Below are positions 1 through 64,000 of a stretch of 64,000 nt of DNA, piece after piece; the first letter of the stretch is position 1; each line of letters begins with the position of its first letter. The notes below the pieces were generated by a model, which was not told the DNA's origin, searched no databases, and was given only the letters and a program-made list of their open reading frames with translations. Both the position numbers and the translations under genes were made by a program. The stretch lies in sequence record PP216084, one strand, 5' to 3'. The stretch is from Escherichia phage vB_EcoS_HZ_ZJUN2.

Positions 1-586
1 ACTTCATCAACTATAACAGTACCGAATACTTTAGACAGATTATTCGCATGTTTATTCACTGTTTGAATATTACTGACCACAATTGGTGGATCAATATTGT
101 ATTTCCCAGAACCTATGATACCCGGTTCAAACCCAAACCATTTACGAACTTCTGCCGCCCACATTTCACGAATAGATGTGTTGGTACAAATTACCAAAGT
201 TTTCTGGCCAAATTTATACGCAAGTGCAAGGGCTAGGATAGTTTTACCAAATCCAGGCTTACCATTAATAATACAGGTATCATCGCATTCTTCGTATATT
301 GGAAGCTGATCTTCTTCACGCAGCTTGAACTTAGGTTTTGGTATATCTACCGGAGCTAATGTGCGTTTATCAACTAATTCATATTTTACTCCTTTAACAT
401 CTAGTAAATCCAGACGCGTGATAGGAATCCACTTAATCTCTTTAGCAACAACACCACTATTCTTATACATAATAGGGTATTTACTAGTCATTGTCTCTAT
501 GTGATAAGTGGTTTGCTTACTACAATAATCCCAAAGTTCATCATCGGGCTTGAAATATGCTTTATTAGATATAACAACCTTCATAA
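1..586 (-). CDS. ATP-dependent helicase, N-terminal part (runs off the window edge)
   Basis: Minus-strand reading frame open from an ATG near 584-586 to position 1; Walker A motif GKPGFGKT in translation; start overlaps stop of upstream ORF (ATGA). Not in the ORF track because it is truncated. Confidence 0.55.
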
Positions 587-1078
587 TTTTATTCTAAGTC
601 TAGGAATTTCAGGCTCCTCTTGATGGACTTGATAAATAACAGGGCTATTATTTACCAGAATATAGCTTATATAAGCTGGAACATAGGATAATACAAATGG
701 ATATGGAACTTTAGCTACATAGCATTGGTATTTTCCGTTATAAATTCTAGCTGAATGCAAAACTTTAGAGGTGACAACATCATAGAACGTAGTTTTCTTC
801 CAGTTAATAAGATTTCCATCAGAATCTATAAATTGGCTACGCTTTGACCCAACTAATTGAGACAACATTGATATTCTACCCCTAATAGGATAGAGCTTGT
901 ATGGTAATTCTTTCCGTTTCTCAAATAGAATAAGTCTACGTTGAGAAAAAGTGCCAGGCAACTTCCTGTTATCTAGCACATATTTATTATACCTTGTTGT
1001 AATTACGGAATAATCACCTTCTTGCTCAATTGATACAAACGCCCGTAAAGCATATACGGGCAATTTGAAATCAAGCAC
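581..1078 (-). CDS. hypothetical protein (165 aa) between polymerase and helicase
   Basis: ORF track; 8-nt overlap with polymerase start and coupled ATGA with the downstream helicase; no recognisable motif. Confidence 0.5.
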   Translation of the reverse strand: MLDFKLPVYALRAFVSIEQEGDYSVITTRYNKYVLDNRKLPGTFSQRRLILFEKRKELPYKLYPIRGRISMLSQLVGSKRSQFIDSDGNLINWKKTTFYDVVTSKVLHSARIYNGKYQCYVAKVPYPFVLSYVPAYISYILVNNSPVIYQVHQEEPEIPRLRIKL

Positions 1079-3638: not shown

Positions 3639-3700
3639 ATTTAATCTCCTCTTGGTAAGTAAGTATAACTTCAGTGTTTCTTCTCTAACTTACCAATATA

Positions 3701-4591
3701 TTATACCAAATCTTTAAGCGATTCAGCAACTAAAATTTCAATACGTTTTGCTAACATATCAATTTCATCTTTGTTTAAATCACCAGGATCTTTGCCTTCG
3801 GGCAGAAGAAAGTTAGCAACTACAGGTGTTAAACGCGTTTTTGTACGAATTAGCTTGGCCAACGCTTGTGCAGCTTTATTACCCGAAGCATCATTATCTA
3901 GTAAGATAACAACAACTTTTACACCAGCAATAATATAAGGACTGAACTTATCTGCAATGTTATCTGAAGTGAACTGATGTGTACCAAAGCAGCAAGAAGC
4001 ATAGTCTATACCGTTATCCTCTAGGTTCAGCATATCAAAGATACCTTCAACTAGAATAAGAACTGGAGTATTATATCGTACAGGGAAAATCGGTGGTGAA
4101 ACTTGTTTTGGTTTTACTAAGTATTTAGGAGGGGCAGAACTGTTTATAGAACGACCCAAAAATAGGATATTGCGTCCAACAGCATCTGTGATTGGGAATA
4201 CAATTCTGCCTTCCCAGTCTGCTTGATGTTGGAAAGCAAAATATTTCTTCAAGGTCTTAGAACTTATACCTCGGAAATCACCTTCGAAAAGGTAAGCAGA
4301 TTCAGGAATTGCAAGATTCGTTGATCCATTCCTAATCTCTGAAATCTTTTTACGTACCTGTGATAGTCTTGGAGACTGTCGGTACTGAGTCTCATTAAAA
4401 TAATGGTAAATGCTCGGTATACCTTTACCGAAGCCACAACTCAAGCAGTGCATAATACCTGTTTCAGGATCAATACGCAAACTTGGGTGTTTATCGTCAT
4501 GATCTGGATTGAGACAACATATAAGAATATCACCACCTGTATCTTTATACTCAATGCCTTTCAGATCAAGTAGTTCTGTTATTCTACTCAT
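3701..4591 (-). CDS. DNA primase (DnaG-like: zinc finger + TOPRIM)
   Basis: N-terminal zinc-finger-like CCLNPDHDDKHPSLRID...CLSCGFGKG and TOPRIM-like LVEGIFDM / VVILLDNDASGNKAA. Confidence 0.8.
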   Translation of the reverse strand: MSRITELLDLKGIEYKDTGGDILICCLNPDHDDKHPSLRIDPETGIMHCLSCGFGKGIPSIYHYFNETQYRQSPRLSQVRKKISEIRNGSTNLAIPESAYLFEGDFRGISSKTLKKYFAFQHQADWEGRIVFPITDAVGRNILFLGRSINSSAPPKYLVKPKQVSPPIFPVRYNTPVLILVEGIFDMLNLEDNGIDYASCCFGTHQFTSDNIADKFSPYIIAGVKVVVILLDNDASGNKAAQALAKLIRTKTRLTPVVANFLLPEGKDPGDLNKDEIDMLAKRIEILVAESLKDLV

Positions 4592-5121
4592 GAGTTTAGC
4601 TCCTCTAGTGCAGGATAATTAGATATATCAAAAATCTCTATAACAGCACGTTCTCCATGTAGATTAGTTCTCAGTATATTTGCTGAGTTTACAGCTAATT
4701 CTAACTCTTCATACTTAAATCTGCCACCATTTTTAAGGTTGCCATTAGAGTCTCTTACCTGTACCCTCCATTTTTGTTTTTCAATATCCCAAGCAACTCC
4801 TAAGTACCCAGATTTACTACATGCTGTTTTATTTCTACTATTTTCCTGGGCTGTAGCATCTCTTAGATTACACCACCTATTATCAAAGGGTATTCTGTTT
4901 ACATGGTCTACTTTTTCAGGCAGTGTATTCTCCATAAATAGAAAAGCCATACGATGAGCTTTGTAATCCTTTCCATCTATGCCAATAATTATATAGTCAT
5001 TAGAGTCTTTTCTAGTTACTATACTCCCAGCTTTCTGATTGCCTCTAGATACTTTTCTAGTAAACTCCCCAGTTTCTGGGGAGTAATCAAATAACTCTTT
5101 TAGCCTTTCCTGTGTTATCAT
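4588..5121 (-). CDS. HNH homing endonuclease
   Basis: HNH-type motif HVNRIPFDNRWCNLRDAT; paralogous to ORFs at 33519-34342, 54339-54866 and 57830-58366; inserted between primase and helicase. Confidence 0.8.
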   Translation of the reverse strand: MITQERLKELFDYSPETGEFTRKVSRGNQKAGSIVTRKDSNDYIIIGIDGKDYKAHRMAFLFMENTLPEKVDHVNRIPFDNRWCNLRDATAQENSRNKTACSKSGYLGVAWDIEKQKWRVQVRDSNGNLKNGGRFKYEELELAVNSANILRTNLHGERAVIEIFDISNYPALEELNS

Positions 5122-6641
5122 ATATCGCTGGCCTGTTCACCTGTTGAATTTTCAGCTTTGTCTTTCTTAGCACGTTTAGGTTGAGCCGGCTTATCCTTCT
5201 CAATAGGGATAACGAACTCAGCTTCCATTTGAGATATATCTTCCATTGCTAGGTTGGTAGTGTTATCCATTCGCAGAGTTTCCCAGTTCATTTTAGGCAT
5301 AAACTTCACGCTATCAGAAGAACGAGTCTTAACGAAGTCAAACATAATAGCACCTTGACCATTATCAGCTTTTGCAGCATTAAGATTAGCAGCCATGTCT
5401 GCGGAATCAAGAATCCCCTTTGACATACGTGTTCTACCATCTTGATCGATCTGGTAAGGAGCTACACCAGCCACGTTATGTTTCTGGCAGATAGATTTGA
5501 AAGACGAGCTAACAACCATCTGTTCTTTCCAGTCATACATATCAATGGTTTTAGAGTCTGGAAGTCGGGTTTGGTTAATATAGTCCAGTAAGGCTACTGT
5601 AACTTTATCTCCATATCTAGCAACTAATTTATTTAGTTCTACGTCAACTGTTGTAATAGACAGCTCAGGGTCATAAACAATAATCATAGGAGTATGTAGT
5701 TCATACCCTTCTATTAGCTTACTCTCCATATCGTAGAAATCACTCATCTTAGCCATTGTGTATTGTTTAACGAAGTTATCAAAAAGCTCTTCACCACCAT
5801 TAAACATTCTAGCTCTAGTTCTGGCTAATCTCAACAGAGCTGCACCTTCTAGAGTATTATTACGCATTGCTAGTGCTGATACACCTGCTAACATGGCTAG
5901 ATTACGTCTAAATACTTCATGTTCTTTCATCTCAATTGAGAAGTATGGAGCAATATCTCCATTCAAATATTGCTGAACCTGTATGTTTGAACAGATAATG
6001 GATTTACCAGTACCACGCCAACCACCAAGCAGTAACGTTTCTGTGCGAGCTAAACCAATTTGAGCGTCGAACTCATTACAAATACCAAGAGCGATTAAGT
6101 TCAGTTTGGTATCTTCTTCTCTCTGGAAAATACGCATGTTATCTGCGTTGAATACTTTTCCAGTATTCGTTACTTTCTCTTCTAATTTTAAGTGAAGGGA
6201 GGCAACTCGGTTGAGAATTTCTCCCTGATCCAGCATTGTTAAATCTTGAAGCACGTCTGTTTCTAGAAGCTTCAGGAATAGATCCTGCGTATATTCGGCT
6301 TCTAGGACTTCAAGTGCCTGTTCCATGCTCACTTCTGGAATTTGAGTGTTAGCTAAGACGACTAGAGCTTGAGAAAGGCGGGCGTTCCTATTAGCTTCAA
6401 GCATAAGTGCGTCAATGGACGGCATTGTGTTATATTTTTTATAATAATTCTGGACGGCTTGGTAAATTGAGGAGAAAGCGTCATTAAAATGATCTTTATG
6501 CAGTTTTGAGAATGTTTCCAATGCTATTTGCTTCTGTTCTGAAGCAAGAAGCATCTTCAACACTACAGCTTGCACGTTAAACAAGGTCATTCTCCTTTGC
6601 ACGCTTTCGTGCCTTCTAAATGCAAAAAGGGGAAGGAGCAT
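5118..6641 (-). CDS. replicative DNA helicase (DnaB-like, RecA-fold ATPase)
   Basis: 507-aa ORF with Walker A GGWRGTGKS in C-terminal half; adjacent to primase. Confidence 0.75.
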   Translation of the reverse strand: MLLPLFAFRRHESVQRRMTLFNVQAVVLKMLLASEQKQIALETFSKLHKDHFNDAFSSIYQAVQNYYKKYNTMPSIDALMLEANRNARLSQALVVLANTQIPEVSMEQALEVLEAEYTQDLFLKLLETDVLQDLTMLDQGEILNRVASLHLKLEEKVTNTGKVFNADNMRIFQREEDTKLNLIALGICNEFDAQIGLARTETLLLGGWRGTGKSIICSNIQVQQYLNGDIAPYFSIEMKEHEVFRRNLAMLAGVSALAMRNNTLEGAALLRLARTRARMFNGGEELFDNFVKQYTMAKMSDFYDMESKLIEGYELHTPMIIVYDPELSITTVDVELNKLVARYGDKVTVALLDYINQTRLPDSKTIDMYDWKEQMVVSSSFKSICQKHNVAGVAPYQIDQDGRTRMSKGILDSADMAANLNAAKADNGQGAIMFDFVKTRSSDSVKFMPKMNWETLRMDNTTNLAMEDISQMEAEFVIPIEKDKPAQPKRAKKDKAENSTGEQASDI

Positions 6642-6650
6642 AGCCCCCTC
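6612..6650 (-). terminator. putative rho-independent terminator
   Basis: GC-rich hairpin (AGGGGAGGG...CCTTCCCCT on minus strand) followed by T-run, downstream of ORF 6673-7440. Confidence 0.4.
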
Positions 6651-6672
6651 CCCTTAGGTTTAATTTACCAGA

Positions 6673-7440
6673 TTATTCAGCAGCCGCAGCTTTTGCATCC
6701 AGTTTAGCACGCTTAGCGGCACCATCATAGTCCTTAGCAACCAGACCACGACGAGACAGCATAGATTTAACACCACGCTCAGACTTACCAGTTTTCTCAG
6801 CGATCTCAGCAACAGTCATGTTAACCAGATCCAGACCTTCTAACAGATCTTCACGAGTTTTAGCACTTGAAGTTTCCTGTACCGGCATAGCAGCGATACG
6901 ACCTTCACGAAGCAGGCTCAGAGCTTTACCACGGATCTGCTTAATATTGCGACCGAAGTGAGCAGCGATAGCTTCAATAGTAGCACCAGCAACAACCTGA
7001 TTAACAAAATCAGTTTCTTCATCCGGAGTGAAGGAACGAACAGCGGCAGCTTTTTCGGTTGGTTTAACAGAAGCGGTCATTTCCAGACTCAGGATCTTAC
7101 CCTGTACCTGTTTAGCACCGAACTGACCACCAGCTACAGCAGCAGCGATTTCAGCATAGGTATACTGACCAGCATGAGCGTTCAGGAAATCAACCAGCTC
7201 AGCTTCCTGCTCAGGAGTCCACGGGGATTTCTGTACTTCGTTAGCTTTCTGTACTTCAAAACCTTCTTTACGCAGTTTAGAGCCAACAGAGCGAGCAGTA
7301 ACATCTTTGCCAGTTTCAGCAGCTAGTTCAGCAGCAATAGCAGCTACTTGTTCTTGAGAGATTACAGCAACACCCAGAGCAGTGGCTTTTGCTTTCAGAG
7401 ACTCGGTTACACCTTCTACGTTCCAGTTCAGTTTAGACAT
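6673..7440 (-). CDS. putative DNA-binding protein with three internal repeats (possibly T5 D5-like)
   Basis: 255 aa, Ala-rich, three ~70-aa repeats each ending in an HTH-like segment (E/TIAA...G..K.V..K..SL); the D5 assignment is an inference. Confidence 0.55.
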   Translation of the reverse strand: MSKLNWNVEGVTESLKAKATALGVAVISQEQVAAIAAELAAETGKDVTARSVGSKLRKEGFEVQKANEVQKSPWTPEQEAELVDFLNAHAGQYTYAEIAAAVAGGQFGAKQVQGKILSLEMTASVKPTEKAAAVRSFTPDEETDFVNQVVAGATIEAIAAHFGRNIKQIRGKALSLLREGRIAAMPVQETSSAKTREDLLEGLDLVNMTVAEIAEKTGKSERGVKSMLSRRGLVAKDYDGAAKRAKLDAKAAAAE

Positions 7441-8215
7441 TATTATTTTTCTCCAATAGTTCTTTAATCGACAGGATTTCTATCCCATTCGTTTCGGCTT
7501 TCTTATAAGATGAGGAAGAACGTTTTGATTCATCCTCACAGATTAGGTATTTGACGTCTTTGGTAACGGATTTCTTAACCGTATACCCTAGACCTTCTAA
7601 ATAGTTTGTTGCATCCGTTCTATTTGCAAAATCTTGCAAAGATCCGGTAATACATACCGCGATTCCATTTGGCTTGGCAACTAATTCATCCGTAGTGATA
7701 ATATTAGCTTTAGTGCCCTTAATACCAGTTGAGAATTTCCACGGTAGTTCGATAACATCCTTGCCTTGTGGGGAATTTAGCCAGGCTTTGTAATTTTCTC
7801 CAGCCTTGCCGTCAGCCTTCACATCATGGAAGCTAGTGCAATTTTGGGATAATTTCTTTGCTGCAACCTCTCCAATTAGAGGGATTCCTAAAGAACCGAG
7901 AACTGAACCAAAGTCAATGTCTCCGCGAACTTTAGTATTTAATTCGCTAATTAACTTAGCGGCAACCTTGCTACCCACGGCTCTAACCAAATCTTCTTCG
8001 GTTAGGTAAAATAGTTCTGAAATCTTCGTCAGCTCCAGCTTCTCAATAGTTTTTGGGCCAAAGCCCTTTAACTTCATTTTTGAACAGAAGTTCTCAATTA
8101 ACTTGCTTGATTGCGCTGGACAGTTGGACTTATTACGACAGAATAATTGTCCGTTGACAAGATCTAGCTTAGAACCACAAGAGGGACATTGTGTTGGAAT
8201 TTCGATTTTCATCAA
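7433..8215 (-). CDS. NAD-dependent DNA ligase, C-terminal fragment (Zn finger/HhH/BRCT-like)
   Basis: CPSCGSKLDLVNGQLFCRNKSNCPAQ zinc finger at N-terminus, helix-hairpin-helix-like GFGPKTIEKL, sits downstream of the adenylation fragment. Confidence 0.7.
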   Translation of the reverse strand: MMKIEIPTQCPSCGSKLDLVNGQLFCRNKSNCPAQSSKLIENFCSKMKLKGFGPKTIEKLELTKISELFYLTEEDLVRAVGSKVAAKLISELNTKVRGDIDFGSVLGSLGIPLIGEVAAKKLSQNCTSFHDVKADGKAGENYKAWLNSPQGKDVIELPWKFSTGIKGTKANIITTDELVAKPNGIAVCITGSLQDFANRTDATNYLEGLGYTVKKSVTKDVKYLICEDESKRSSSSYKKAETNGIEILSIKELLEKNNNV

Positions 8216-8242
8216 ATTTCTTCCTTATCAATTTATATAAAT

Positions 8243-8271
8243 ATTATAGCAAGTATTTAAGCATTTAGCAA
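8243..8271 (-). promoter_or_regulatory. sigma70-type early promoter (minus strand) inside the ligase split
   Basis: -35 TTGCTA, 17-bp spacer, -10 TATAAT, followed by conserved leader ATTTATATAAATTGATAAGGAG and the ATG at 8215. Confidence 0.6.
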
Positions 8272-8414
8272 CTACAATTTTAATTAACTTTGCTTACCCT
8301 CGCCATAACTTTCTATCCCTCAACTGAATGATAATAGTATATACCTAAGCGGCGAAAATGTCAATAACCACTTTATAATTCCGATATGGTAGATGGGTAG
8401 CAAAGGGTTATGTA

Positions 8415-9389
8415 TTAATCGTATACTCGCTCTACTATGCACGGGATTACACCACCAGCACGAATCACTCGAATCTGGCAACCGATCTCTAGATCGAGAG
8501 AGTTAATATAATCAACGTTATTAAGAGTTGCTTTAACAATTGTAGCATCATCAATAATTACCGGTTCGAAATAACCAACTGGAGTTACTTTACCAGAAGC
8601 CCCTACCTGCCATTCAACTTTAGTAAGAGTTGTAATCTCGCCTTCTTCATCCTCTTTAATGGCGAAGGCTCCACGAGGGAATTTATTAGTCCAGCCTTCA
8701 CGGAAGAATTTGTTGTTGTCATTAATACGAACAACTTTACCGTCCGTCGGAATCCATTTAAAGAAGGAACGCACATTAACAACTGTTAAGAAGTTCTCAT
8801 TCTCTAGCCAAAGCATATCTTTTAAGTATGCTTCTGTAATACCTACAGATTCAGCAGAACATTGGATACCATAAGCAACAAAGATTAAACCGCCTTCTCC
8901 AATGCGTTGTACGAAAGCATCACTATCTTTGAGGTTAATAGCACCAGAGGCAAAGTTACGTTTATTTTCTACTTCTTTTGTAATTAGAACTTCACCAGTG
9001 ATTTGAGTAGGTACTTTTTGGGAAATCTTTTTAGGAATATTCAGCAATCTTACGTTGCTTGTGACATCATTCCCCAGAATACCATTACCACGAGTTAATG
9101 CTTGAACAAATTCACCGTTAATATATAATAGAGAAATTGCACAACCATCTAACTTATCAGTTTCTACCTGACCTAAAGGATTAAATGGTGGTTTATCCCC
9201 ACGATTATAATAAACTTTCTGTAAAGAATACATACGGTACAGATGTGGAATATCTCCCTTAGGCCCGATCTCTTCTTCTAGTGGGAAGCGTTTTACCAGG
9301 CAATCATACTCCTCATCAGAGATTAAAGACATGCCTTGATAATATGCTTCTTGACAACGCTTAATAAAGCCTCTTACATTATTCATCAT
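8415..9389 (-). CDS. NAD-dependent DNA ligase, N-terminal adenylation fragment
   Basis: KxDG adenylation motif (ETDKLDGCAISL) and LigA-like N-terminal domain. Confidence 0.8.
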   Translation of the reverse strand: MMNNVRGFIKRCQEAYYQGMSLISDEEYDCLVKRFPLEEEIGPKGDIPHLYRMYSLQKVYYNRGDKPPFNPLGQVETDKLDGCAISLLYINGEFVQALTRGNGILGNDVTSNVRLLNIPKKISQKVPTQITGEVLITKEVENKRNFASGAINLKDSDAFVQRIGEGGLIFVAYGIQCSAESVGITEAYLKDMLWLENENFLTVVNVRSFFKWIPTDGKVVRINDNNKFFREGWTNKFPRGAFAIKEDEEGEITTLTKVEWQVGASGKVTPVGYFEPVIIDDATIVKATLNNVDYINSLDLEIGCQIRVIRAGGVIPCIVERVYD

Positions 9390-9579
9390 CGGCGATTTCC
9401 ATCTTGAGTTCTTTATTATATTGTGTAACCATGTCCATCAAATCAGCAGATTCTTTCAGAAACGCATCTTTGTACACCTTTTGATTTACTGTGCCTATGC
9501 TATCTTGATAATTAATACGTGCTGTGGAAAGTAGATTAAGTTTTGCTTGAATCTTGGGAAGTGTTACTGTCATTGCCAT
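9379..9579 (-). CDS. hypothetical protein (66 aa)
   Basis: ORF track; overlaps neighbouring genes by a few nt (translational coupling). Confidence 0.45.
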   Translation of the reverse strand: MAMTVTLPKIQAKLNLLSTARINYQDSIGTVNQKVYKDAFLKESADLMDMVTQYNKELKMEIADDE

Positions 9580-9852
9580 TCACCGTACCTCATATGCTTT
9601 AGGCTGTCTAGTGGATCCGTGCCATGTATAATTTTTGCAAAGATGCAAATATGTAGTTTTTACTAGCCTATCCGATAATGGAGAGTATATTTCAGCTATT
9701 AATACTTCTTTTTCGTAATAAAGTGAAATCAGTTTATACCCAGTTCTAGTTTTAGTATACTTTTCCCCATTAATCTTTTCCTCCCACATGAGTATGAGAG
9801 GCTGTCCGATATATGGAAAAGGTTTAAGTGTACTTATATTTATCTTTTTCAC
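9580..9852 (-). CDS. hypothetical protein (90 aa)
   Basis: ORF track; preceded by early promoter at 9883-9911. Confidence 0.5.
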   Translation of the reverse strand: MKKINISTLKPFPYIGQPLILMWEEKINGEKYTKTRTGYKLISLYYEKEVLIAEIYSPLSDRLVKTTYLHLCKNYTWHGSTRQPKAYEVR

Positions 9853-9882
9853 TTTGCAACCCTCTCATTAATTTATATAAAT

Positions 9883-9911
9883 ATTATATAACAAAACTGA
9901 GTTGAAAGCAA
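9883..9911 (-). promoter_or_regulatory. sigma70-type early promoter (minus strand)
   Basis: -35 TTGCTT / 17 bp / -10 TATAAT plus conserved leader ATTTATATAAATTAATGAGAGGG. Confidence 0.6.
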
Positions 9912-9917
9912 ATACAT

Positions 9918-10229
9918 TTATTCTTTTTCCGCCAGGCGTTTAGCTTCTTTTTCTACTTCTAATAAAACCTCACTATTAGATAATATTTTAGTAAATGCCT
10001 TAAATAAATGAGATGTTGTTTCTAGAGTGTATGGCATACTGAATCCACTTTTTGTTGGAAACCATTCACCTTCTATATCTTGGAGCCAGTACCTAATTCC
10101 TAAGTATAGATTCCCCCTAAACTCAGATACAGTTAGCCTAACCTGTTGGCCATCTTCTCTCTCCCAGATAACTATGGACTGATCATCTACATGTCCAACA
10201 TAATCCTGATTTACATTATCTCCTGACAT
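9918..10229 (-). CDS. hypothetical protein (103 aa)
   Basis: ORF track. Confidence 0.5.
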   Translation of the reverse strand: MSGDNVNQDYVGHVDDQSIVIWEREDGQQVRLTVSEFRGNLYLGIRYWLQDIEGEWFPTKSGFSMPYTLETTSHLFKAFTKILSNSEVLLEVEKEAKRLAEKE

Positions 10230-10876
10230 TTTATTGCTCCCTGACTTAGGAGATATTCCTCTGCCTCCTCTGGTTGAATACTGAAAAACTCAGTAGAACC
10301 GTCAAATATTGACTCTGTAAATATCTGCATACTAGAAAAGAATTGATGGGCTTTATTTTCTAGGGTATATGCAGAGCCTTCATAAGAGTATACCCCATAT
10401 ATACTCAGATCCACCAAATTAGAATCTTTTTTAATCTCTTGAAGTCTTCTATCTGGGTTTTTAGATGTTCCTATTTTTGTTCCTAGCTGCGGGCTATAAA
10501 ATAGATACAAATAGCTTGTAGCCGCACAGATAGGGCAAGATCTTCTAGCATTTTTAATCTTATCCACGCTGCTAACCCATCTATGTCCTTCTACACACTC
10601 GAACTCTGCTTGACTACGGGAATTAATATAGGGAGATATAAGTTTTATACCCCTACTGGCTAGCTGTTGGTTTATTTGCTCTACAGTAAGCTTAGCTTTA
10701 TTACTACAATGTGGGCAACCACTACCCTTTCTTATATTATTTAGGTAAGCTTTCCATTGGTGGCCCTTTAAGCATTTAAACATGGCTGGTGTTCTTATGT
10801 TAACCCATTCACTTACTATACTAAAGCCTCGTGACTCTAATTCTTTATTTATTTGTTTTGCTGTTAACTTTTTCAC
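10211..10876 (-). CDS. zinc-finger protein with C-terminal T5orf172-type (GIY-YIG-like) domain
   Basis: Repeated CxxC zinc-finger modules (GCPHCSNK, CPICA) followed by LYLFYSPQLGTKIGTSKNPDRRLQEIKK; paralog of ORF 21353-22258. Confidence 0.6.
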   Translation of the reverse strand: MKKLTAKQINKELESRGFSIVSEWVNIRTPAMFKCLKGHQWKAYLNNIRKGSGCPHCSNKAKLTVEQINQQLASRGIKLISPYINSRSQAEFECVEGHRWVSSVDKIKNARRSCPICAATSYLYLFYSPQLGTKIGTSKNPDRRLQEIKKDSNLVDLSIYGVYSYEGSAYTLENKAHQFFSSMQIFTESIFDGSTEFFSIQPEEAEEYLLSQGAIKCQEIM

Positions 10877-36428: not shown

Positions 36429-37376
36429 ATGTTTGCTACTAAAAACACTAAAGAACTGACTTATGAGCAAAAATTGATGCGTAATATCAAACGTTGGGGT
36501 ATTGGTGTTGCAGTTGGTTTGGTAGGTTTAGTTCTGGCCCTTAACTCCTATACTGTGGTTCAAGACGGTACTGTTAAAACCCAGACTTTCCTGGGTAAAG
36601 TTGACCCTAGCCCAGTATTACCAGGCTTTCATATTGTAAATCCTTTTGCTTCTTTCGATACTTTTAGTACTAAAGATATTGCTGTAAAATTAGATAAACT
36701 TCAGGTTCCTAGCCAGGATAAGTTTAAATCCACTGTTGACCTGACTGTTATGTTGCAGTTTGATGGTTCTAAGGCACCGATCAACCGTATTAATGCAGGT
36801 ACTCAGGATCAGGCGTTAGACAAATATGTAACTGAAAAATTACTGTCTACCATCCGTGAGTTTGGTAAGTCTGTACCTAAAGCACAAGATTTGTTTGATG
36901 CTAAAATTCAAGCACAATTACAAACTGCAATTCAACAGGAAGTTGAAGAGTATGCACGCCCTTATGGTTACACAGTTAAGCAAGTGTTCCTTCAGGATAT
37001 CACATTACCACCGGTAATTATGGAACAGGTACAGAATACCAAAGTTCGTGAAGAACAAGTTAATGCTGCGAAAGCTGAATTGGCTCGTGTTGAACAAGAA
37101 GCACAGCAGAAGGTTAAACAAGCAGAAGCAGATCGTGAAGCTCGTAACAACCAAGCTATTGCAAACGAACGTGATGCAGATGCTAAACTGTATGCAGCTA
37201 AGAAAGAAGCCGAAGCTAACGCCGCTCTGCAACGTACTATTACTCCTGAGATGATTCGCTGGAAACAACTAGAAGTTGAAATGACTCGTGCTCAGAAGTA
37301 TCAAGGTGGTGTGCCGCAAACAGTAGTTGGCACTGGGTACGATGGCCGGATGATTATGGATATGCGTAACAAGTAA
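36429..37376 (+). CDS. SPFH/band-7 (prohibitin/HflK-like) membrane protein
   Basis: N-terminal TM helix (WGIGVAVGLVGLVLAL), SPFH-like core, long charged coiled-coil C-terminal region (EQEAQQKVKQAEADREARNNQAIANERDADAKLYAAKKEAEANA). Confidence 0.65.
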   Translation: MFATKNTKELTYEQKLMRNIKRWGIGVAVGLVGLVLALNSYTVVQDGTVKTQTFLGKVDPSPVLPGFHIVNPFASFDTFSTKDIAVKLDKLQVPSQDKFKSTVDLTVMLQFDGSKAPINRINAGTQDQALDKYVTEKLLSTIREFGKSVPKAQDLFDAKIQAQLQTAIQQEVEEYARPYGYTVKQVFLQDITLPPVIMEQVQNTKVREEQVNAAKAELARVEQEAQQKVKQAEADREARNNQAIANERDADAKLYAAKKEAEANAALQRTITPEMIRWKQLEVEMTRAQKYQGGVPQTVVGTGYDGRMIMDMRNK

Positions 37377-37400
37377 TTCCCACACGTAATATTCGAAGTA

Positions 37401-37440
37401 AGCCCTGTGTTCCCTGGAGAGCGCAGGGCTTTTCTGTTTT
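37401..37440 (+). terminator. rho-independent terminator
   Basis: AGCCCTG...CGCAGGGCT hairpin + TTTCTGTTTT. Confidence 0.6.
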
Positions 37441-50753: not shown

Positions 50754-51505
50754 TGTCAGTATTAGTAGGTTTACATGGCGAGGCAGGTGCAGGAAAAGAT
50801 ACCGTTGCAAAATTAATTATCGATTGGTGTAATGACACGTATCCAACGTGTTCACCCCGTCGTTACAGTTTTGCTAAACCAGTTTATGAGCTTGCATCCG
50901 TAATCCTCGGGGTAACTCCAGAGTTTCTGGGAGAGCGCAGGGGAAAAGAAATTGACCAATGGTTTACTGTCACACAATCTCAATTGGAGCGAGCTAGAGA
51001 CGTATGGTTTAAATACGGTATCGATAAGTTTGAAGACTTCTCGTACGTTTGGCCGATTTTTGAGGAAAAATATCTTAATCCTCAACAACTTATCTCAGAG
51101 AATAAAGAAGACGGACTTTACAGTTTATTTATTTCTCCGAGAAAAATGTTACAGCTCGTAGGAACAGAGCTAGGAAGGCAGCTGGTACATGAACGCATTT
51201 GGCTCATAATTCTGGAGCAATCCATCGCTAAAGACGACCCAGATGTCGCCGTAATAACAGATGTGAGATTCCCCAATGAAGGAGAGTTACTCAGAGAAAC
51301 GAACCATTTAGATATGGATTCTTTACTAATAAATGTAGTGCCCGCTGAGCAGAAGTTCACTATTAAATCAGATCATCCATCTGAAAGTGGTATTCCTGCA
51401 AAATATATCACCCACGAATTAGTTAATAAATTCGATGGTATCAATAACCTTAAACTAGAAGTGTATAACTTCTGTGACTTAGAGCTAGAACCACTAGTTG
51501 GATAA
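50753..51505 (+). CDS. deoxynucleoside monophosphate kinase (P-loop NMP kinase)
   Basis: N-terminal Walker A VGLHGEAGAGKDTVAKL; ~250 aa as for phage dNMP kinases. Confidence 0.7.
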   Translation: MSVLVGLHGEAGAGKDTVAKLIIDWCNDTYPTCSPRRYSFAKPVYELASVILGVTPEFLGERRGKEIDQWFTVTQSQLERARDVWFKYGIDKFEDFSYVWPIFEEKYLNPQQLISENKEDGLYSLFISPRKMLQLVGTELGRQLVHERIWLIILEQSIAKDDPDVAVITDVRFPNEGELLRETNHLDMDSLLINVVPAEQKFTIKSDHPSESGIPAKYITHELVNKFDGINNLKLEVYNFCDLELEPLVG

Positions 51506-60979: not shown

Positions 60980-61164
60980 TGGAAACTCTTTTTCTTTTAA
61001 TGCTCGTAGGTTCTCTGTTACTAATACTAGCACTTCTACTAATCTGCAATATTCTTAACAACAAGAATCTAGAACTAAAGTGTGAGAACCAAATCCTTAA
61101 TCGTGAACTTAAACAATATAACATCGCAGCCCATAAACTGTTAGACAAACTGGAGAATAAATAA
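60979..61164 (+). CDS. small membrane protein (61 aa)
   Basis: ORF track; TM segment LFLLMLVGSLLLILALLLI. Confidence 0.5.
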   Translation: METLFLLMLVGSLLLILALLLICNILNNKNLELKCENQILNRELKQYNIAAHKLLDKLENK

Positions 61165-61769
61165 TGACTTTTAATGCACAACAACCTATTCAAGTAGTAC
61201 CAGACCATGAACTGAATACATGGGATTATAGCTTTAAAGATTTAACTGCTACTATACAATTCAAATCTATGAAGCTAACATTTGCACACACTGATCTTAG
61301 AGCCTGTAAAGATCTTGAAGGTAAGCTCGAAGATGCTCGTAAGATTTTTGGTAAGGCTCGCATCCCGGCTGATAATCTAATTAACGCATTAATCGATGCA
61401 GGATACAAACTCGTGAAGACTGAGGTGAACCGCCCTAGTACTCCAGTGACTATTAGAGATCCGTGGCAGCCAGGGACAATCTCAATGCTAAATAAATCAT
61501 CGGATATACACAATGTTCCTTGTGGGGGTGTGATAAGTAGTACGCAGTCCTATCGAGTTGGTGAAGATTACGGCCCATCTGTACAGTTGAAACATACTCA
61601 AGAAGCTTTTGAATCTGATATGCGAAGCGTAGCACCTGCGGATGCTGGAGTTTCTAGGAGTTCTGTTTGTACTATTCATTTTAATAATCCTGGTAAACAT
61701 GGAAGTTTAGAAGATGCTATTATGGAGGCGTTGGGAGCTGTCATTAATGAAGATAAGAGAGGTAGCTAA
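61164..61769 (+). CDS. hypothetical protein (201 aa)
   Basis: ORF track. Confidence 0.5.
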   Translation: MTFNAQQPIQVVPDHELNTWDYSFKDLTATIQFKSMKLTFAHTDLRACKDLEGKLEDARKIFGKARIPADNLINALIDAGYKLVKTEVNRPSTPVTIRDPWQPGTISMLNKSSDIHNVPCGGVISSTQSYRVGEDYGPSVQLKHTQEAFESDMRSVAPADAGVSRSSVCTIHFNNPGKHGSLEDAIMEALGAVINEDKRGS

Positions 61770-61780
61770 TCCTCTAATAT

Positions 61781-61800
61781 ATGAGCCTCTACGGAGGCTC
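61781..61800 (+). terminator. putative hairpin terminator
   Basis: GAGCCTCTACGGAGGCTC followed by A/T-rich tract. Confidence 0.4.
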
Positions 61801-61847
61801 TAAAATAAAAAGAAGGTCATCCAGACCTTAAAAATGAGAGATAAATA

Positions 61848-62732
61848 ATGTATAACTTTAAAGACAAACTAAGACAAAATGCTGGTAAAGGAAAGACAAA
61901 GGAGAATAATAGTGTTCCTAATGCTAAAGTACTTCCGTTTCCTGAACTAACTCAAGAAGAAAAAGATAAACTAGCATTTATGTTCGATGCACTTATAGGA
62001 TTAAGTGGACGACTATACTCCACCCTTAGTCTTAATGAGAAACGTCTAGTAGAGATGTTTTGTAAACGTTACCCAGTTACTTCAAAGGGCAACGCCCATA
62101 AAGAAGGTGAAAAAGCATTCACAGTCTTAAAAATCAGTGCATATGCACATCGTTTCTTAGTTTATGGATTACAGATGGAATACTTCACCATTCCCCCATT
62201 TAAGTCATTTCACATTTTTGAAGATGAACGAATGAATATTGATGATCTCTATGGGGATACGTACAAATATTCAGGAAGTCCATTCCATGATGCATTAAGA
62301 AGCTATCCTACTAGTTATCTACCAGTTAGGGCATCACAAGGTAAAGCTAGCATCTTTGCTGTATACTCAGGATCTAAAGCATCTGATCTAGAAACTTATA
62401 TATTTAAAGAGCGTAAATCTGTGCTTCCAGATGAAGCATTATATAATAATCCGTTGCTTCCAGAAAAAGAACCAGAGAAAATTGATGTAACCCCACCAAT
62501 CCCATCTGATTCTCCTTACCTGAAGTTTGAAAACCACGTTGGATGGGTTCTAGAAATGGGTGTAGCTTCACCGCTTGCTGCAGCATTCATCAATAGGTAT
62601 CTAGAAATTCCTGACGAGTTCCACACACGTTATAATACGAATATTCAGATTACAGATGAATTAATAGCCATTGCAAAAGGTACACCTACTGACACTGAGG
62701 CGTATCAAAAAGCATACCAAGAGTTACTGTAA
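61848..62732 (+). CDS. hypothetical protein (294 aa)
   Basis: ORF track; RBS GAGAGATAAATA. Confidence 0.55.
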   Translation: MYNFKDKLRQNAGKGKTKENNSVPNAKVLPFPELTQEEKDKLAFMFDALIGLSGRLYSTLSLNEKRLVEMFCKRYPVTSKGNAHKEGEKAFTVLKISAYAHRFLVYGLQMEYFTIPPFKSFHIFEDERMNIDDLYGDTYKYSGSPFHDALRSYPTSYLPVRASQGKASIFAVYSGSKASDLETYIFKERKSVLPDEALYNNPLLPEKEPEKIDVTPPIPSDSPYLKFENHVGWVLEMGVASPLAAAFINRYLEIPDEFHTRYNTNIQITDELIAIAKGTPTDTEAYQKAYQELL

Positions 62733-62741
62733 GATCCTGCA

Positions 62742-62775
62742 TGTCTCGGTGCACAATACCTGTACCGAGACTCAA
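62742..62775 (+). terminator. putative hairpin terminator after last gene
   Basis: GTCTCGGTGCACAATACCTGTACCGAGAC. Confidence 0.45.
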
Positions 62776-63278
62776 ATACAAACTCTCGTTGACAGATAGC
62801 TAAATGTATGTTATCATAACTCTATGAGTTAATAGAATTAACCATTTAGAGTTGCCACACAGAAGGTGTGGTGGTTCAGTAATTTAAAATTACTAACTTG
62901 TAGCGGAGGATACGGAGCGACAGGACAAGTTAATAAGTAATTTAATATAAATTGCTAGAAACACCACGAGACCTTCTGGCGGGGGCAAAGCTCTATATGA
63001 GAACCCTGGGGGATCTTATACTTAAAATAAAAGTAAAACTTTTGACCACATAATTTACATTCAAGATGATACACCTGTTGCCGCTCATCTGCTAGGATGG
63101 CACAACACTTTCCTAGAAACTCTAGAGTTCTCACGAAATACTCACGAGATACCACACTTCTAGTGGGCGGTTCTCCTAAGTTTCTAGGAACATATACTAG
63201 GCGGTTAATACAGGGCGGTTATGGGGAGGGCGGTTATTTCTAGACAACATTTTTTGAAAACACTTTTCCAGAAATTAC

Positions 63279-63881
63279 TGTCGGATTTGCACATTGTGTT
63301 TCTAGAAATTTATGGTCGGATTTGCACAATTGCCTAAGTTTTCATGAACATATAATCTCTTGAAAATGGCAGCATTATTTCGGGCCGAAGGCCCATGATT
63401 GCCTGAGTTTTTAGAGCCACAGAAATTTTCACTTGTCAAGCTATTTTGCCTCATTTTGCTAATAAAATTTTACTTTATCTCCTCTAATCTCAAATTAACC
63501 CAAATCTTCTCAACTCTTCCCCAAAATCCCCGCAAATCGGGTGCCCCGCACCAAACATGCGCCCCTCTAGCTTCCCCCCTAATTTTCTCTCGCTCTCTCA
63601 ACTTCTCCCCAAACCCATACAATCACACACCCTCCAATCGAAGTCACAAAAATTTCATCGGATTCGCACAAATAAACCCATGTCGGATTTGCACATATTC
63701 TAGCTAATTCCACAGGATTGATGCGCAGCATCGGATTGCTGGAGTTTTTGGGAAAATTCATTGTCGGATTCGCACACTATAAAAATTTTTGGGGTCGGAT
63801 TTGCACACTACCAAAAATTGTCGGATTCGCACATACATGCCCGCACGTAACACCCGTGGAGCAATGTCGGATTTGCACAAA
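63279..63881. repeat. array of at least 8 dispersed direct repeats, consensus GTCGGATTYGCACA
   Basis: Copies at about 63279, 63314, 63659, 63681, 63761, 63793, 63819 and 63866; non-coding context; followed by palindrome GCGCAGGGCAATTGCCCTGCG at 63883-63905. Confidence 0.75.
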
Positions 63882-63911
63882 AGCGCAGGGCAATTGCCCT
63901 GCGACTTTGAA

Positions 63912-64000
63912 TGAGAATAATTATCATTTAAGAAGTGGAATGCGAATGATAATTATTCTCATTTAAGAAGTGGAATGATTCTCATTTAAGAAGTGGAATG
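63912..64000. repeat. palindrome plus 3 tandem copies of TCATTTAAGAAGTGGAATG
   Basis: Inverted repeat GAGAATAATTATCAT / ATGATAATTATTCTC and three direct repeats at 63924, 63959 and 63982, running to the window edge. Confidence 0.75.

What the first reader, a model, noticed from the sequence alone, without database searches (positions are those of the whole stretch)
62733..64000. Repeat-dense non-coding region at the window end (possible terminal-repeat boundary or regulatory locus)
After the last ORF there is ~1.25 kb without genes containing: about 8 copies of GTCGGATTYGCACA, at least 4 copies of GGGCGGTT (63165-63240), several TTTCTAGRAA motifs, palindromes (CCACACAGAAGGTGTGG at ~62855; GCGCAGGGCAATTGCCCTGCG at 63883) and three tandem copies of TCATTTAAGAAGTGGAATG. 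T5 is known to carry repeat-rich sequence near its injection-stop/terminal-repeat boundary; these arrays could be protein-binding iterons.
Basis: partly seen in the sequence, partly recalled or inferred. Interest (0 to 1): 0.6.

Follow-up and report, generated by a model that had tools for sequence, protein, structure and literature searches.

The report
T5-type terminal-repeat boundary repeat region
This gene-free, repeat-packed stretch is the already described "injection-stop / repeat region 3" at the right edge of the long terminal repeat of a T5-like phage, so it is real and conserved but not new, and how it works is still unknown.

Summary
The window is a T5-like phage (Tequintavirus-like) read on the T5 minus strand. 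Positions 62733-64000 are colinear with T5 (NC_005859) 10935-9619, which covers T5's annotated injection-stop signal, the 7.9% major nick and the right end of the left terminal repeat. Six related genome records end exactly at window 63413|63414, so the terminal-repeat boundary lies inside the finding. The GCGCAGGGCAATTGCCCTGCG palindrome sits at the conserved nick site (A|GCGC, 63882|63883). The GTCGGATTYGCACA units are T5's "DRD" repeats. They bracket the repeat end (2 outside, 6 inside) in one orientation. They do the same in Pectobacterium phage My1 and Klebsiella phage IME260, where the spacers are unrelated. This points to binding sites for one sequence-specific protein. My preferred but unproven reading is that they help form the genome end (pac-like). 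The main rival is a role in two-step DNA transfer. The stretch has no conserved protein gene. It probably does hold an unannotated small RNA gene (promoter 62789-62817, about 190 nt of hairpin RNA). Verdict: already known, moderate-to-low interest.

The parts
62743..62771 (+). Hairpin GTCTCGGTGCA-N7-TGTACCGAGAC just after the stop of the T5.018 homologue. It may mark the end of the leftward early operon, but no T-run follows it.
   Evidence: Inverted repeat I12. Invariant stem in 10 relatives.
62789..62817 (+). Sigma-70 promoter-like site TTGACA-17-TATCAT with an extended TG. It points toward the terminal repeat.
   Evidence: 11 of 12 consensus positions. Invariant in 10 relatives. Consensus-type promoters sit at the same place in two non-homologous alleles.
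62822..63010 (+). Not annotated in T5.
   Evidence: MFE -67.4 kcal/mol, z -6.6. 67 pairs, 99.9% of cells paired, 3 compensatory pair changes, G-U pairs valid only on the + strand. No Rfam match. Non-homologous analogues in L040 (z -6.8) and L079 (z -6.8, with an intrinsic terminator).
63092..63310 (.). Cluster of CTAG-centred palindromes and half-sites (TTCTAGR, including the three TTTCTAGRAA sites). The arrangement varies between relatives.
   Evidence: 9 CTAG in 62940-63320, the densest in the window, Poisson P about 1e-4 before multiple-testing correction. Variable block in the alignment.
63165..63235 (+). GGCGGTT direct repeats at 63165, 63200 (AGGCGGTT), 63213 and 63228. The last two (CAGGGCGGTTAT...GGGAGGGCGGTTATT) are conserved even in My1 and IME260.
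63280..63328 (+). DRD group A: two GTCGGATTTGCACA units, 35 nt apart, outside the terminal repeat. They start 134 and 99 nt before the repeat end.
   Evidence: Near-100% conservation in 21 relatives.
63383..63395 (.). Invariant G+C hairpin GGGCC-gaa-GGCCC, about 20 nt before the repeat end. IME260 has a different hairpin at the same position.
63397..63449 (.). Core of the genome end. GATTGCCTGAGTTTTTA | GAGCCACAGAAATTTTCACTTGTCAAGC, with the terminal-repeat boundary between 63413 and 63414. Bases from 63414 onward are inside the repeat.
   Evidence: Six genome records (including T5) end at this exact homologous position. The T5 LTR is annotated 1-10219. The My1 annotated TR end aligns here, and the IME260 annotated end is 20 nt away. 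The sequence is nearly invariant.
63414..63656 (+). C-rich, G-poor tract (C 35%, G 8%) immediately inside the repeat end. It contains the direct repeat TCTCAACTYYTCCCCAAA twice.
   Evidence: Most skewed 200 nt of the whole window. The same composition appears at the same place in My1 and IME260 without sequence similarity. Repeat family D8.
63657..63879 (+). DRD group B: six (G/A)TCGGATTYGCACA units inside the terminal repeat, starting 243 to 452 nt from its end. Spacings are 25, 81, 31, 26 and 46 nt.
   Evidence: The same spacings occur in T5.
63845..63890 (+). Major nick-site module, CGTAAC..CG..G..AA-N-AA|GCGCAGGG. The predicted nick lies between 63882 and 63883 on the + strand (the T5 minus strand). 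It is the homologue of the T5 7.9% / 99.6% interruption.
   Evidence: T5 nick annotated at 9748/9749 on the minus strand. Base-by-base correspondence and a motif shared with the T5 18.5% and 32.6% nick sites. Three such + strand sites in the window.
63884..63903 (-). Perfect 20-nt palindrome CGCAGGGCAATTGCCCTGCG. On the minus strand a T-run (CTTTTGTG) follows it, so it also looks like an intrinsic terminator for rightward pre-early transcription.
63907..64000 (+). Start of the DRE/DRC-type array: GAATGAKAATNATTCTCATTTAAGAAGTGGAATG units, with three exact TCATTTAAGAAGTGGAATG copies and two Fur-box-like palindromes at 63912-63926 and 63947-63961. The window end cuts it off. The published shear point for first-step transfer maps to about 63920.
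   Evidence: In fp01 more such units follow, then the DnaA-box inverted repeat. The shear point is 9618 in AY587007 coordinates, about 9698 in NC_005859.

Best explanation
SHOWN: the region is the homologue of bacteriophage T5 'Repeat Region 3' plus the short unique spacer next to it. It is the non-coding block at the right edge of the roughly 10-kb direct terminal repeat of a T5-like phage.

Read in window orientation it contains, in order:
- the end of the early operon;
- a promoter plus hairpin-RNA cassette;
- a CTAG / GGCGGTT motif block;
- two DRD units;
- a G+C hairpin;
- the genome-end position (63413|63414);
- a C-rich tract;
- six more DRD units;
- the conserved major nick site (63882|63883);
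- the first units of the repeat array in which first-step DNA transfer stops.

INFERRED mechanism (my commitment, about 0.4): the 14-bp DRD units are asymmetric binding sites for one phage-encoded sequence-specific protein. That protein marks the right genome end on replicating concatemers. The two arrays bracket an almost invariant cut site, as pacL and pacR bracket pacC in SPP1, or as the hexamer repeats bracket the P1 pac cut. I propose they recruit or position terminase for the initiating cut. T5 injects its left end first, so by the last-in, first-out rule packaging should start at the right end and proceed into the repeat.

The nick module and the DRE-type array further in serve other functions of the same block: nicking before encapsidation, and the pause of DNA entry at about 8%. 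The pause mechanism is still unsolved in the literature.
For: Identity:
- 447 matching Demerecviridae records.
- Colinear alignment to T5 10935-9619, where iss, nick and LTR end are annotated.
- The literature describes the same set of repeats, including nine DRD copies.

Genome end:
- Six records end at 63413|63414.
- The My1 annotated TR end aligns with it.

DRD units as binding sites:
- 8 copies against 0.39 expected.
- All copies have the same orientation.
- 38 copies from four phages give the near-invariant core TCGGATT-GCAC.
- Arrays are kept on BOTH sides of the repeat end in Markadamsvirinae, My1 (Mccorquodalevirinae) and IME260 (Sugarlandvirus), although no alignment of 100 nt or more to this region was found in those loci.
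- Multi-copy clusters were found only in contigs of 96-122 kb.
- The most conserved segment of all is the 90 nt around the cut.

Not at the other end: no DRD unit occurs near the T5 left terminus.
Against: - No experiment links DRD units to terminase or to any protein. I found no paper on a T5 pac site.
- Group B extends to about 465 nt from the cut, which is long for a pac site.
- The last DRD unit abuts the nick, and group B lies just distal to the first-step-transfer stop, so a role in DNA transfer fits the geometry equally well.
- Many relatives keep one more copy 1.8 kb away inside the T5.019 gene, which a pac model does not explain.
- Some record ends may have been set by homology to T5 rather than measured.
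- The IME260 annotated end is 20 nt off.
- The window itself cannot show terminal redundancy.
Confidence: 0.4

Rival explanations
1. The DRD units belong to the two-step DNA-transfer machinery. They would be bound by the conserved pre-early DNA-binding protein A2 (with A1), or by a host envelope factor, to hold the DNA at about 8% or to restart transfer.
For: Group B begins 4 nt from the 7.9% nick and within about 50 nt of the estimated shear point. T5 annotates the iss across 9140-10149, which covers group B. A2 is annotated as a DNA-binding protein required for transfer and is one of the few LTR genes conserved in all T5-like phages. Papers up to 2026 still attribute the stop to this repeat-rich region.
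Against: Copies outside the terminal repeat, beyond the C-rich tract, are conserved in three subfamilies, and a stop signal at 8% would not need them. Davison's own candidates for iss are the DnaA-box inverted repeat and the DRE repeats, not the DRD units.
Confidence: 0.3
2. The DRD units are low-affinity DnaA boxes. This extends Davison's model, in which membrane-bound host DnaA holds the entering DNA.
For: The 3' nine bases of five units (ATTTGCACA) match TTWTNCACA at 8 of 9 positions. That gives 5 relaxed hits in the region against 0.5 expected from window density. Consensus DnaA boxes exist about 300 nt further into the repeat in relatives.
Against: No unit matches the full consensus (0 hits). 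The 5' half, TCGGA, is as invariant as the 3' half. The TTCGCACA variants have 2 mismatches. My1 uses GCACT, which changes the CACA end of the box. Spacings of 25-81 nt are unlike oriC-type arrays.
Confidence: 0.1
3. The block is mainly a transcriptional insulator and regulatory region. The repeats would be operator sites for an early or late regulator. The C-rich, G-poor tract would be a Rho-utilisation site that stops leftward early transcription, or the RNA from the 62789 promoter, from entering the pre-early repeat.
For: A strong promoter faces the repeat. The 243-nt tract with C 35% and G 8% on the transcribed-sense strand is conserved in composition in three subfamilies. The palindrome at 63884-63903 is terminator-like for the opposite direction.
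Against: There is no gene start within 1 kb of most DRD units. Early genes here are transcribed toward the region, not away from it. Composition alone does not show Rho dependence.
Confidence: 0.12
4. The repeats are selectively neutral leftovers of local duplications in a non-coding spacer.
For: Some blocks (63100-63200) are rearranged between relatives.
Against: The region is more conserved than the neighbouring coding sequence, with many columns invariant in 22 phages. The motif, its orientation and its layout persist in phages whose spacers show no similarity.
Confidence: 0.03

Closest known systems
Bacteriophage T5 'Repeat Region 3' / injection stop signal (Heusterspreute et al. 1987; Wang et al. 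2005; Davison 2015 and bioRxiv 10.1101/866236)
   Same: Homologous and colinear at 87-95% identity to T5 and fp01. It has the same DRD units with the same spacings, the same nick-site palindrome, the same repeat-end sequence, the same GGCGGTT pair and the same DRE-type units.
   Different: The window has 8 DRD copies where T5 has 9: the T5 copy at about 10478 sits in a block the window lacks. The copy inside the T5.019 homologue is degenerate here. The CTAG block is rearranged. The window stops about 90 nt into the DRE array, so the DnaA-box inverted repeat is not in it.
pac sites with recognition repeats on both sides of the cut (SPP1 pacL-pacC-pacR; P1 pac hexamer repeats). From my own knowledge, not tested here.
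   Same: Same-orientation short repeats flank a conserved cleavage position at which packaging would start.
   Different: T5-type genomes have unique ends and a 10-kb direct repeat, not headful-permuted ends. The arrays span about 600 nt. No terminase binding is known.
T7 concatemer junction: short repeat arrays flanking the terminal repeat, and a promoter (phiOR) needed for processing. From my own knowledge.
   Same: A direct-terminal-repeat phage with repeat arrays next to the repeat boundary and a promoter reading toward the junction.
   Different: The T7 repeat is 160 bp and T7 uses its own RNA polymerase. There is no sequence similarity, and the promoter geometry differs.
Replication iterons and DnaA-box clusters (plasmid and lambda origins, oriC)
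   Same: Multiple same-orientation copies of an asymmetric 14-bp unit, whose 3' half resembles a DnaA box at 8 of 9 positions.
   Different: T5 origins map near the genome centre. There is no consensus DnaA box, no AT-rich unwinding element next to the units, and the spacings are irregular.

Membership tests
T5-type LTR right boundary / Repeat Region 3 (iss region) of Demerecviridae | Sequence homology and colinearity with T5 about 9.2-10.4 kb, downstream of the T5.018 homologue | tested here: met
   The flanking ORF 61848-62732 (294 aa) corresponds to T5.018.
T5-type LTR right boundary / Repeat Region 3 (iss region) of Demerecviridae | Array of DRD direct repeats (nine in T5) | tested here: met
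   8 copies, with the same spacings as T5.
T5-type LTR right boundary / Repeat Region 3 (iss region) of Demerecviridae | The right end of a long direct terminal repeat lies within it | tested here: inconclusive
   Six related records end at the homologous position 63413|63414 and the sequence there is invariant. The window holds only one copy, and no reads are available to show redundancy in this genome.
T5-type LTR right boundary / Repeat Region 3 (iss region) of Demerecviridae | Major single-strand interruption at Pu|GCGC on the T5 minus strand at about 7.9% | tested here: met
   The sequence AAAA|GCGCAGGG at 63882|63883 is identical to the annotated T5 site and shares the extended motif of the two other T5 nick sites. 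The nick itself cannot be tested.
T5-type LTR right boundary / Repeat Region 3 (iss region) of Demerecviridae | IRD'-spacer-IRC' inverted repeat with paired DnaA boxes | not testable with these tools
   It lies beyond the window end. It is present in the closest relative fp01 about 250-350 nt past the homologue of position 64000.
T5-type LTR right boundary / Repeat Region 3 (iss region) of Demerecviridae | DNA entry pauses here after about 8% of the genome | not testable with these tools
   Needs infection experiments (blender shear or time-resolved sequencing).
Terminase recognition (pac-type) site | A defined cleavage position flanked by repeated recognition elements | tested here: met
   The record ends are flanked by DRD group A (starting 134 and 99 nt before) and group B (starting 243 to 452 nt after). 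The same holds in My1 and IME260.
Terminase recognition (pac-type) site | Sequence-specific binding by the small terminase subunit, and a requirement for packaging | not testable with these tools
   No binding data exist. The literature search found nothing for T5.
DnaA-box cluster | Matches to TTWTNCACA | tested here: not met
   0 consensus hits in 62733-64000. Five DRD units match 8 of 9 positions.
Fur box | Match to GATAATGATAATCATTATC, or to the 7-1-7 core TGATAATNATTATCA | tested here: inconclusive
   No 19-mer match at 3 or fewer mismatches. Two 15-mer core matches with 1 mismatch each at 63912 and 63947, but both derive from one repeat unit.
Rho-dependent terminator (rut site) | 80 nt or more of C-rich, G-poor RNA downstream of a promoter | tested here: inconclusive
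   C 35% and G 8% over 243 nt on the strand read from the 62789 promoter. Rho dependence was not testable.
Small non-coding RNA gene | Promoter, stable conserved secondary structure with covariation, and a terminator | tested here: inconclusive
   Promoter 11 of 12. z -6.6. Three compensatory pairs, all from a single lineage split. No clear terminator in this allele, although allele C has one. No expression data and no Rfam family.

The most novel reading that the evidence does not exclude
Two readings the evidence does not exclude.

1. The DRD iterons are not part of the injection-stop signal. They are instead the long-missing packaging-recognition array that defines the right genome end of all Demerecviridae. 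That would separate 'end formation' from 'injection stop' within a block that has been treated as one signal since 1987.

2. The adjacent promoter plus long-hairpin cassette is an unannotated small RNA gene of about 170-190 nt. It exists in at least three non-homologous alleles at the same locus, each paired with a different upstream gene.
Probability: 0.3. Interest if true: 0.55.

Novelty: already known. Interest (0 to 1): 0.3.

Why it matters
How T5 stops DNA entry at 8% and then restarts it has been open for more than 50 years. Papers from 2026 still call the mechanism poorly understood. This window adds no new kind of element.

The comparison does sharpen the question:
- The 14-bp DRD units bracket the genome end in three subfamilies.
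- The nick module is a separate, reusable motif.
- The actual pause point lies in the DRE array.

The two DRD units outside the repeat (63280-63328) are single-copy. They are therefore an easy genetic target for telling a packaging role from a DNA-transfer role. The candidate RNA gene would be among the first second-step DNA to enter the cell.

Tried and rejected
- Rfam at permissive thresholds found nothing credible in 62600-64000. The best hit scored 28.7 bits against a 627-bit gathering threshold. Nothing was found in the two alternative RNA alleles either.
- Protein-coding readings were rejected. ORFs in the region are not preserved in frame or extent among 22 relatives. Pfam gives nothing for the two flanking proteins, and PHROGs gives only families of unknown function.
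- There are no consensus DnaA, IHF or Chi sites in the region.
- There is no Fur 19-mer match at 3 or fewer mismatches.
- A strict G-quadruplex / i-motif pattern was not found in the C-rich tract.
- No DRD unit occurs near the T5 left terminus or at the left junction of the right repeat, so the units are not a signal shared by both ends.
- The apparent 80-bp disagreement on T5 LTR length (10,139 against 10,219) is consistent with a coordinate offset at the left end between two T5 records, not with a different right boundary. I inferred this.
- The record end of phage bastian falls elsewhere. It carries only a 48-nt annotated repeat there, so I did not treat it as evidence of a physical terminus.
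- Davison's 2015 review and the supplement of the 2020 preprint could not be read. My assignment of individual palindromes to his names (palI, palJ, DRA, DRC) is therefore left open.
- The literature search for a T5 pac site or for a T5 transcript map of this locus gave nothing usable.
Full report
**Observation.** I read 61800-64000 and listed ORFs. The last convincing gene is the 294-aa ORF at 61848-62732.
- GTCGGATTYGCACA occurs 7 times exactly and once with one mismatch. All copies are on the + strand, at 63280, 63315, 63657, 63682, 63763, 63794, 63820 and 63866. Expectation for the whole 64-kb window is 0.39.
- GGGCGGTT occurs exactly 3 times in 63165-63235, plus AGGCGGTT at 63200.
- TTTCTAGRAA occurs at 3 places. 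These belong to the densest CTAG cluster of the window.
- TCATTTAAGAAGTGGAATG occurs exactly 3 times, the last copy ending at base 64000.
- Both palindromes are present.
- The internal ORFs (up to 102 aa) are not conserved in frame or length in 22 relatives. They sit in a stop-poor C-rich tract, so the region has no protein gene.

**Identity.** The 1268 nt match 447 phage records, nearly all T5-like Demerecviridae. The best is Tequintavirus fp01 at 95%. A 20-kb piece of the window matches such phages at no more than 96%.

The window + strand is the T5 minus strand. Window 63198-64000 aligns with NC_005859 10436-9619, and 61001-63139 aligns with 12673-10529. In that curated T5 record the same stretch carries four features:
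- the left terminal repeat, 1-10219;
- a misc_feature 'injection stop signal (iss)', 9140-10149;
- a 'major DNA single-chain interruption' at 9748/9749 on the minus strand;
- the gene T5.018 (294 aa), with no CDS between 9157 and 10936.

Davison's preprint (10.1101/866236) describes this block as 'Repeat Region 3'.

**The terminal-repeat boundary.** I aligned the region against loci fetched from IMG/VR. Six genome records stop at the same homologous base, window 63413|63414. They are T5 itself, NBEco002 and four others of 108-121 kb. The sequence there is GATTGCCTGAGTTTTTA|GAGCCACAGAAATTTTCACTTGTCAAGC, and bases from 63414 onward are inside the repeat.

The 90 nt around this point are the most conserved part of the whole block. 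The annotated repeat end of Pectobacterium phage My1 aligns with it (GTGTGTTTTT|CC...TTTTTCATTTGTCAATCC). That of Klebsiella phage IME260 is 20 nt away from the same TTTTTTA|GAGCCACAGG motif.

I cannot show redundancy for this genome itself, because the window holds only one copy and no reads are available.

The published LTR lengths of 10,139 and 10,219 bp appear to reflect an 80-bp coordinate offset at the left end between two T5 records. The DnaA-box repeat is also shifted by about 80 bp between them. This is my inference.

**The nick site.** Base-by-base comparison places the T5 7.9% nick at window 63882|63883 (...GCACAAAA|GCGCAGGGCAATTGCCCTGCG).

The three annotated T5 major nick sites share more than the published Pu|GCGC. 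All have CGTAAY..CG..G.AA about 35-20 nt upstream, and GCGCAGGG at the nick. The window has three such + strand modules, at 37420|37421, 50934|50935 and 63882|63883. The only minus-strand GCGCAGGG lacks the upstream part.

On the minus strand the palindrome is followed by CTTTTGTG, so it also scores as an intrinsic terminator for rightward pre-early transcription.

**The DRD units.** Thirty-eight copies from the window, T5, My1 and IME260 give R-T-C-G-G-A-T-T-Y-G-C-A-C-A/T. The bases TCGGA and GCAC are essentially invariant, and there is no dyad symmetry. All copies point the same way.

In every phage they form two groups that bracket the repeat end:

| Phage | Copies outside the repeat | Copies inside the repeat |
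|---|---|---|
| Window | 2 (start 134 and 99 nt before the end) | 6 (start 243-452 nt after the end) |
| T5 | 3 | 6 |
| My1 | 3 | 6 |
| IME260 | 6 | 6 |

In My1 and IME260 the alignment found no stretch of 100 nt or more matching the window region. The motif, its orientation and its layout are therefore under selection, which is the signature of a protein-binding array.

Clusters of the motif occur only in contigs of 96-122 kb; the other hits are single copies. There is none near the T5 left terminus.

The 3' nine bases resemble a DnaA box at 8 of 9 positions. No unit meets the consensus, the 5' half is equally conserved, and My1 changes the CACA end. I therefore favour a phage protein over DnaA.

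**Other conserved modules.**
- The pair CAGGGCGGTT...GGGAGGGCGGTTATT is kept in all three subfamilies.
- Immediately inside the repeat end lies a 243-nt tract with C 35% and G 8%. It is the most skewed stretch of the window. The same composition, but not the same sequence, is present in My1 and IME260. On an RNA read from the 62789 promoter this would look like a Rho-utilisation site. That is a lead only.
- The last 94 nt of the window are the beginning of the DRE/DRC-type array. In fp01 more CATTTARAWAGYGGAATG units follow, then the DnaA-box inverted repeat. These are the elements Davison regards as the likeliest stop signal.
- His estimated shear point (9618 in AY587007, about 9698 in NC_005859) maps to roughly window 63920.
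- The units contain the palindrome AATGAKAATNATTMTCATT. Two copies are one mismatch from the Fur 7-1-7 core, but there is no 19-mer Fur match.

**A probable RNA gene.** Directly after the T5.018 homologue there is a hairpin (62743-71). Next comes a near-consensus promoter, TTGACA-17-TATCAT with TG, at 62789-62817, which points toward the repeat.

The following ~190 nt fold into a small 5' hairpin, a ~150-nt rod and a 3' hairpin (-67.4 kcal/mol, z -6.6). In 18 homologues, 99.9% of pair cells are standard pairs. Three pairs show compensatory double changes, and several G-U pairs exist only on the + strand. All the variation comes from one lineage split, so the covariation evidence is modest.

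Only 140 of the 447 relatives carry this sequence. Others have, at the same place, non-homologous DNA with the same design:
- L040 has a 12 of 12 promoter and a rod with z -6.8.
- L079 has TTGCAT-18-TATAAT, a z -6.8 structure and a clean intrinsic terminator.

The upstream gene differs too: phrog_8583 here against phrog_8993 in L040. No Rfam family matches. I regard this as a likely unannotated, polymorphic small RNA locus. Its function is unknown.

**Mechanism.** What is shown is identity, layout and conservation. What the parts do is inferred.

I commit, at about 0.4, to the DRD arrays being recognition sites that position the end-forming (terminase) cut at 63413|63414.
- They flank the invariant cut in three subfamilies, as recognition repeats flank the cut in the SPP1 and P1 pac sites (from my own knowledge).
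- T5 injects its left end first, so by the last-in, first-out rule packaging should begin at this right end (inference).

The main rival, at about 0.3, is a role in two-step transfer through A2/A1 or a host factor. Group B lies next to the nick and the pause point, and A2 is a conserved DNA-binding protein. Weak DnaA boxes, a transcriptional insulator and neutral repeats are less likely, for the reasons given with each rival.

**Verdict.** The feature is an already described hallmark of T5-like phages. Interest is moderate to low for the finding as such. Some value lies in two by-products:
- the separation of the block into end-formation, nick and pause modules;
- the candidate RNA cassette.

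Noticed in passing
window 62789-63010; L040 4407-4640; L079 8726-8935: A consensus-type promoter followed by a highly structured RNA of about 170-190 nt (z about -6.6 to -6.8). It exists as at least three non-homologous alleles at the same locus in T5-like phages, each next to a different last early gene. It is not annotated in T5 and has no Rfam family.
   Followed up: partly
window 37376-37428 and 50890-50942 (+ strand): Two more copies of the extended major-nick module CGTAAY..CG..G.AA-N17-GA|GCGCAGGG. They correspond to the T5 32.6% and 18.5% interruptions. The shared upstream half extends the published Pu|GCGC consensus.
   Followed up: partly
window 63912-63926 and 63947-63961: Two palindromes (TGAGAATAATTATCA, TGATAATTATTCTCA), each one mismatch from the Fur 7-1-7 core. 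The family-wide consensus AATGAGAATNATTCTCATT recurs in T5, fp01, My1 and IME260. This is notable because the T5 receptor FhuA is (from my own knowledge) iron/Fur-regulated. A literature search found no paper combining 'bacteriophage T5' with 'Fur box'.
   Followed up: partly
window 63414-63656: The most strand-skewed 200 nt of the whole window (C 35%, G 8%) lies exactly inside the repeat end. The composition, but not the sequence, is conserved in My1 and IME260. It is rut-like for + strand RNA, and G-rich on the strand whose 3' end is the genome terminus.
   Followed up: partly
window about 61500 (inside ORF 61164-61769, the T5.019 homologue): T5 and many relatives keep an extra exact DRD unit inside the T5.019 coding sequence, about 1.8 kb from the array. 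In this window it is degenerate (TCGGATATACACA).
   Followed up: partly
window 63328-63343, 63397-63412, 63734-63749: The sequence immediately before the genome end (GATTGCCTGAGTTTTT) occurs three times as a direct-repeat family, GATTGCYNRAGTTTTY. One copy follows a DRD unit and one lies inside DRD group B.
   Followed up: no
relatives: PV844355 (WP85), MH745368 (fp01) 95911-96198, KX845404 (IME260) 10155-10304: Several GenBank records annotate 'hypothetical protein' CDSs inside this non-coding block (up to 7 in WP85, and one spanning the IME260 repeat end). These are probably spurious calls favoured by the stop-poor C-rich tract.
   Followed up: no
L040 3658-4389 compared with window 61848-62732: The last early gene before the repeat region is replaced in some T5-like phages (243 aa phrog_8993 in place of 294 aa phrog_8583). 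There is only faint colinear similarity (E 0.016), so the two may be distant alleles of one family.
   Followed up: partly
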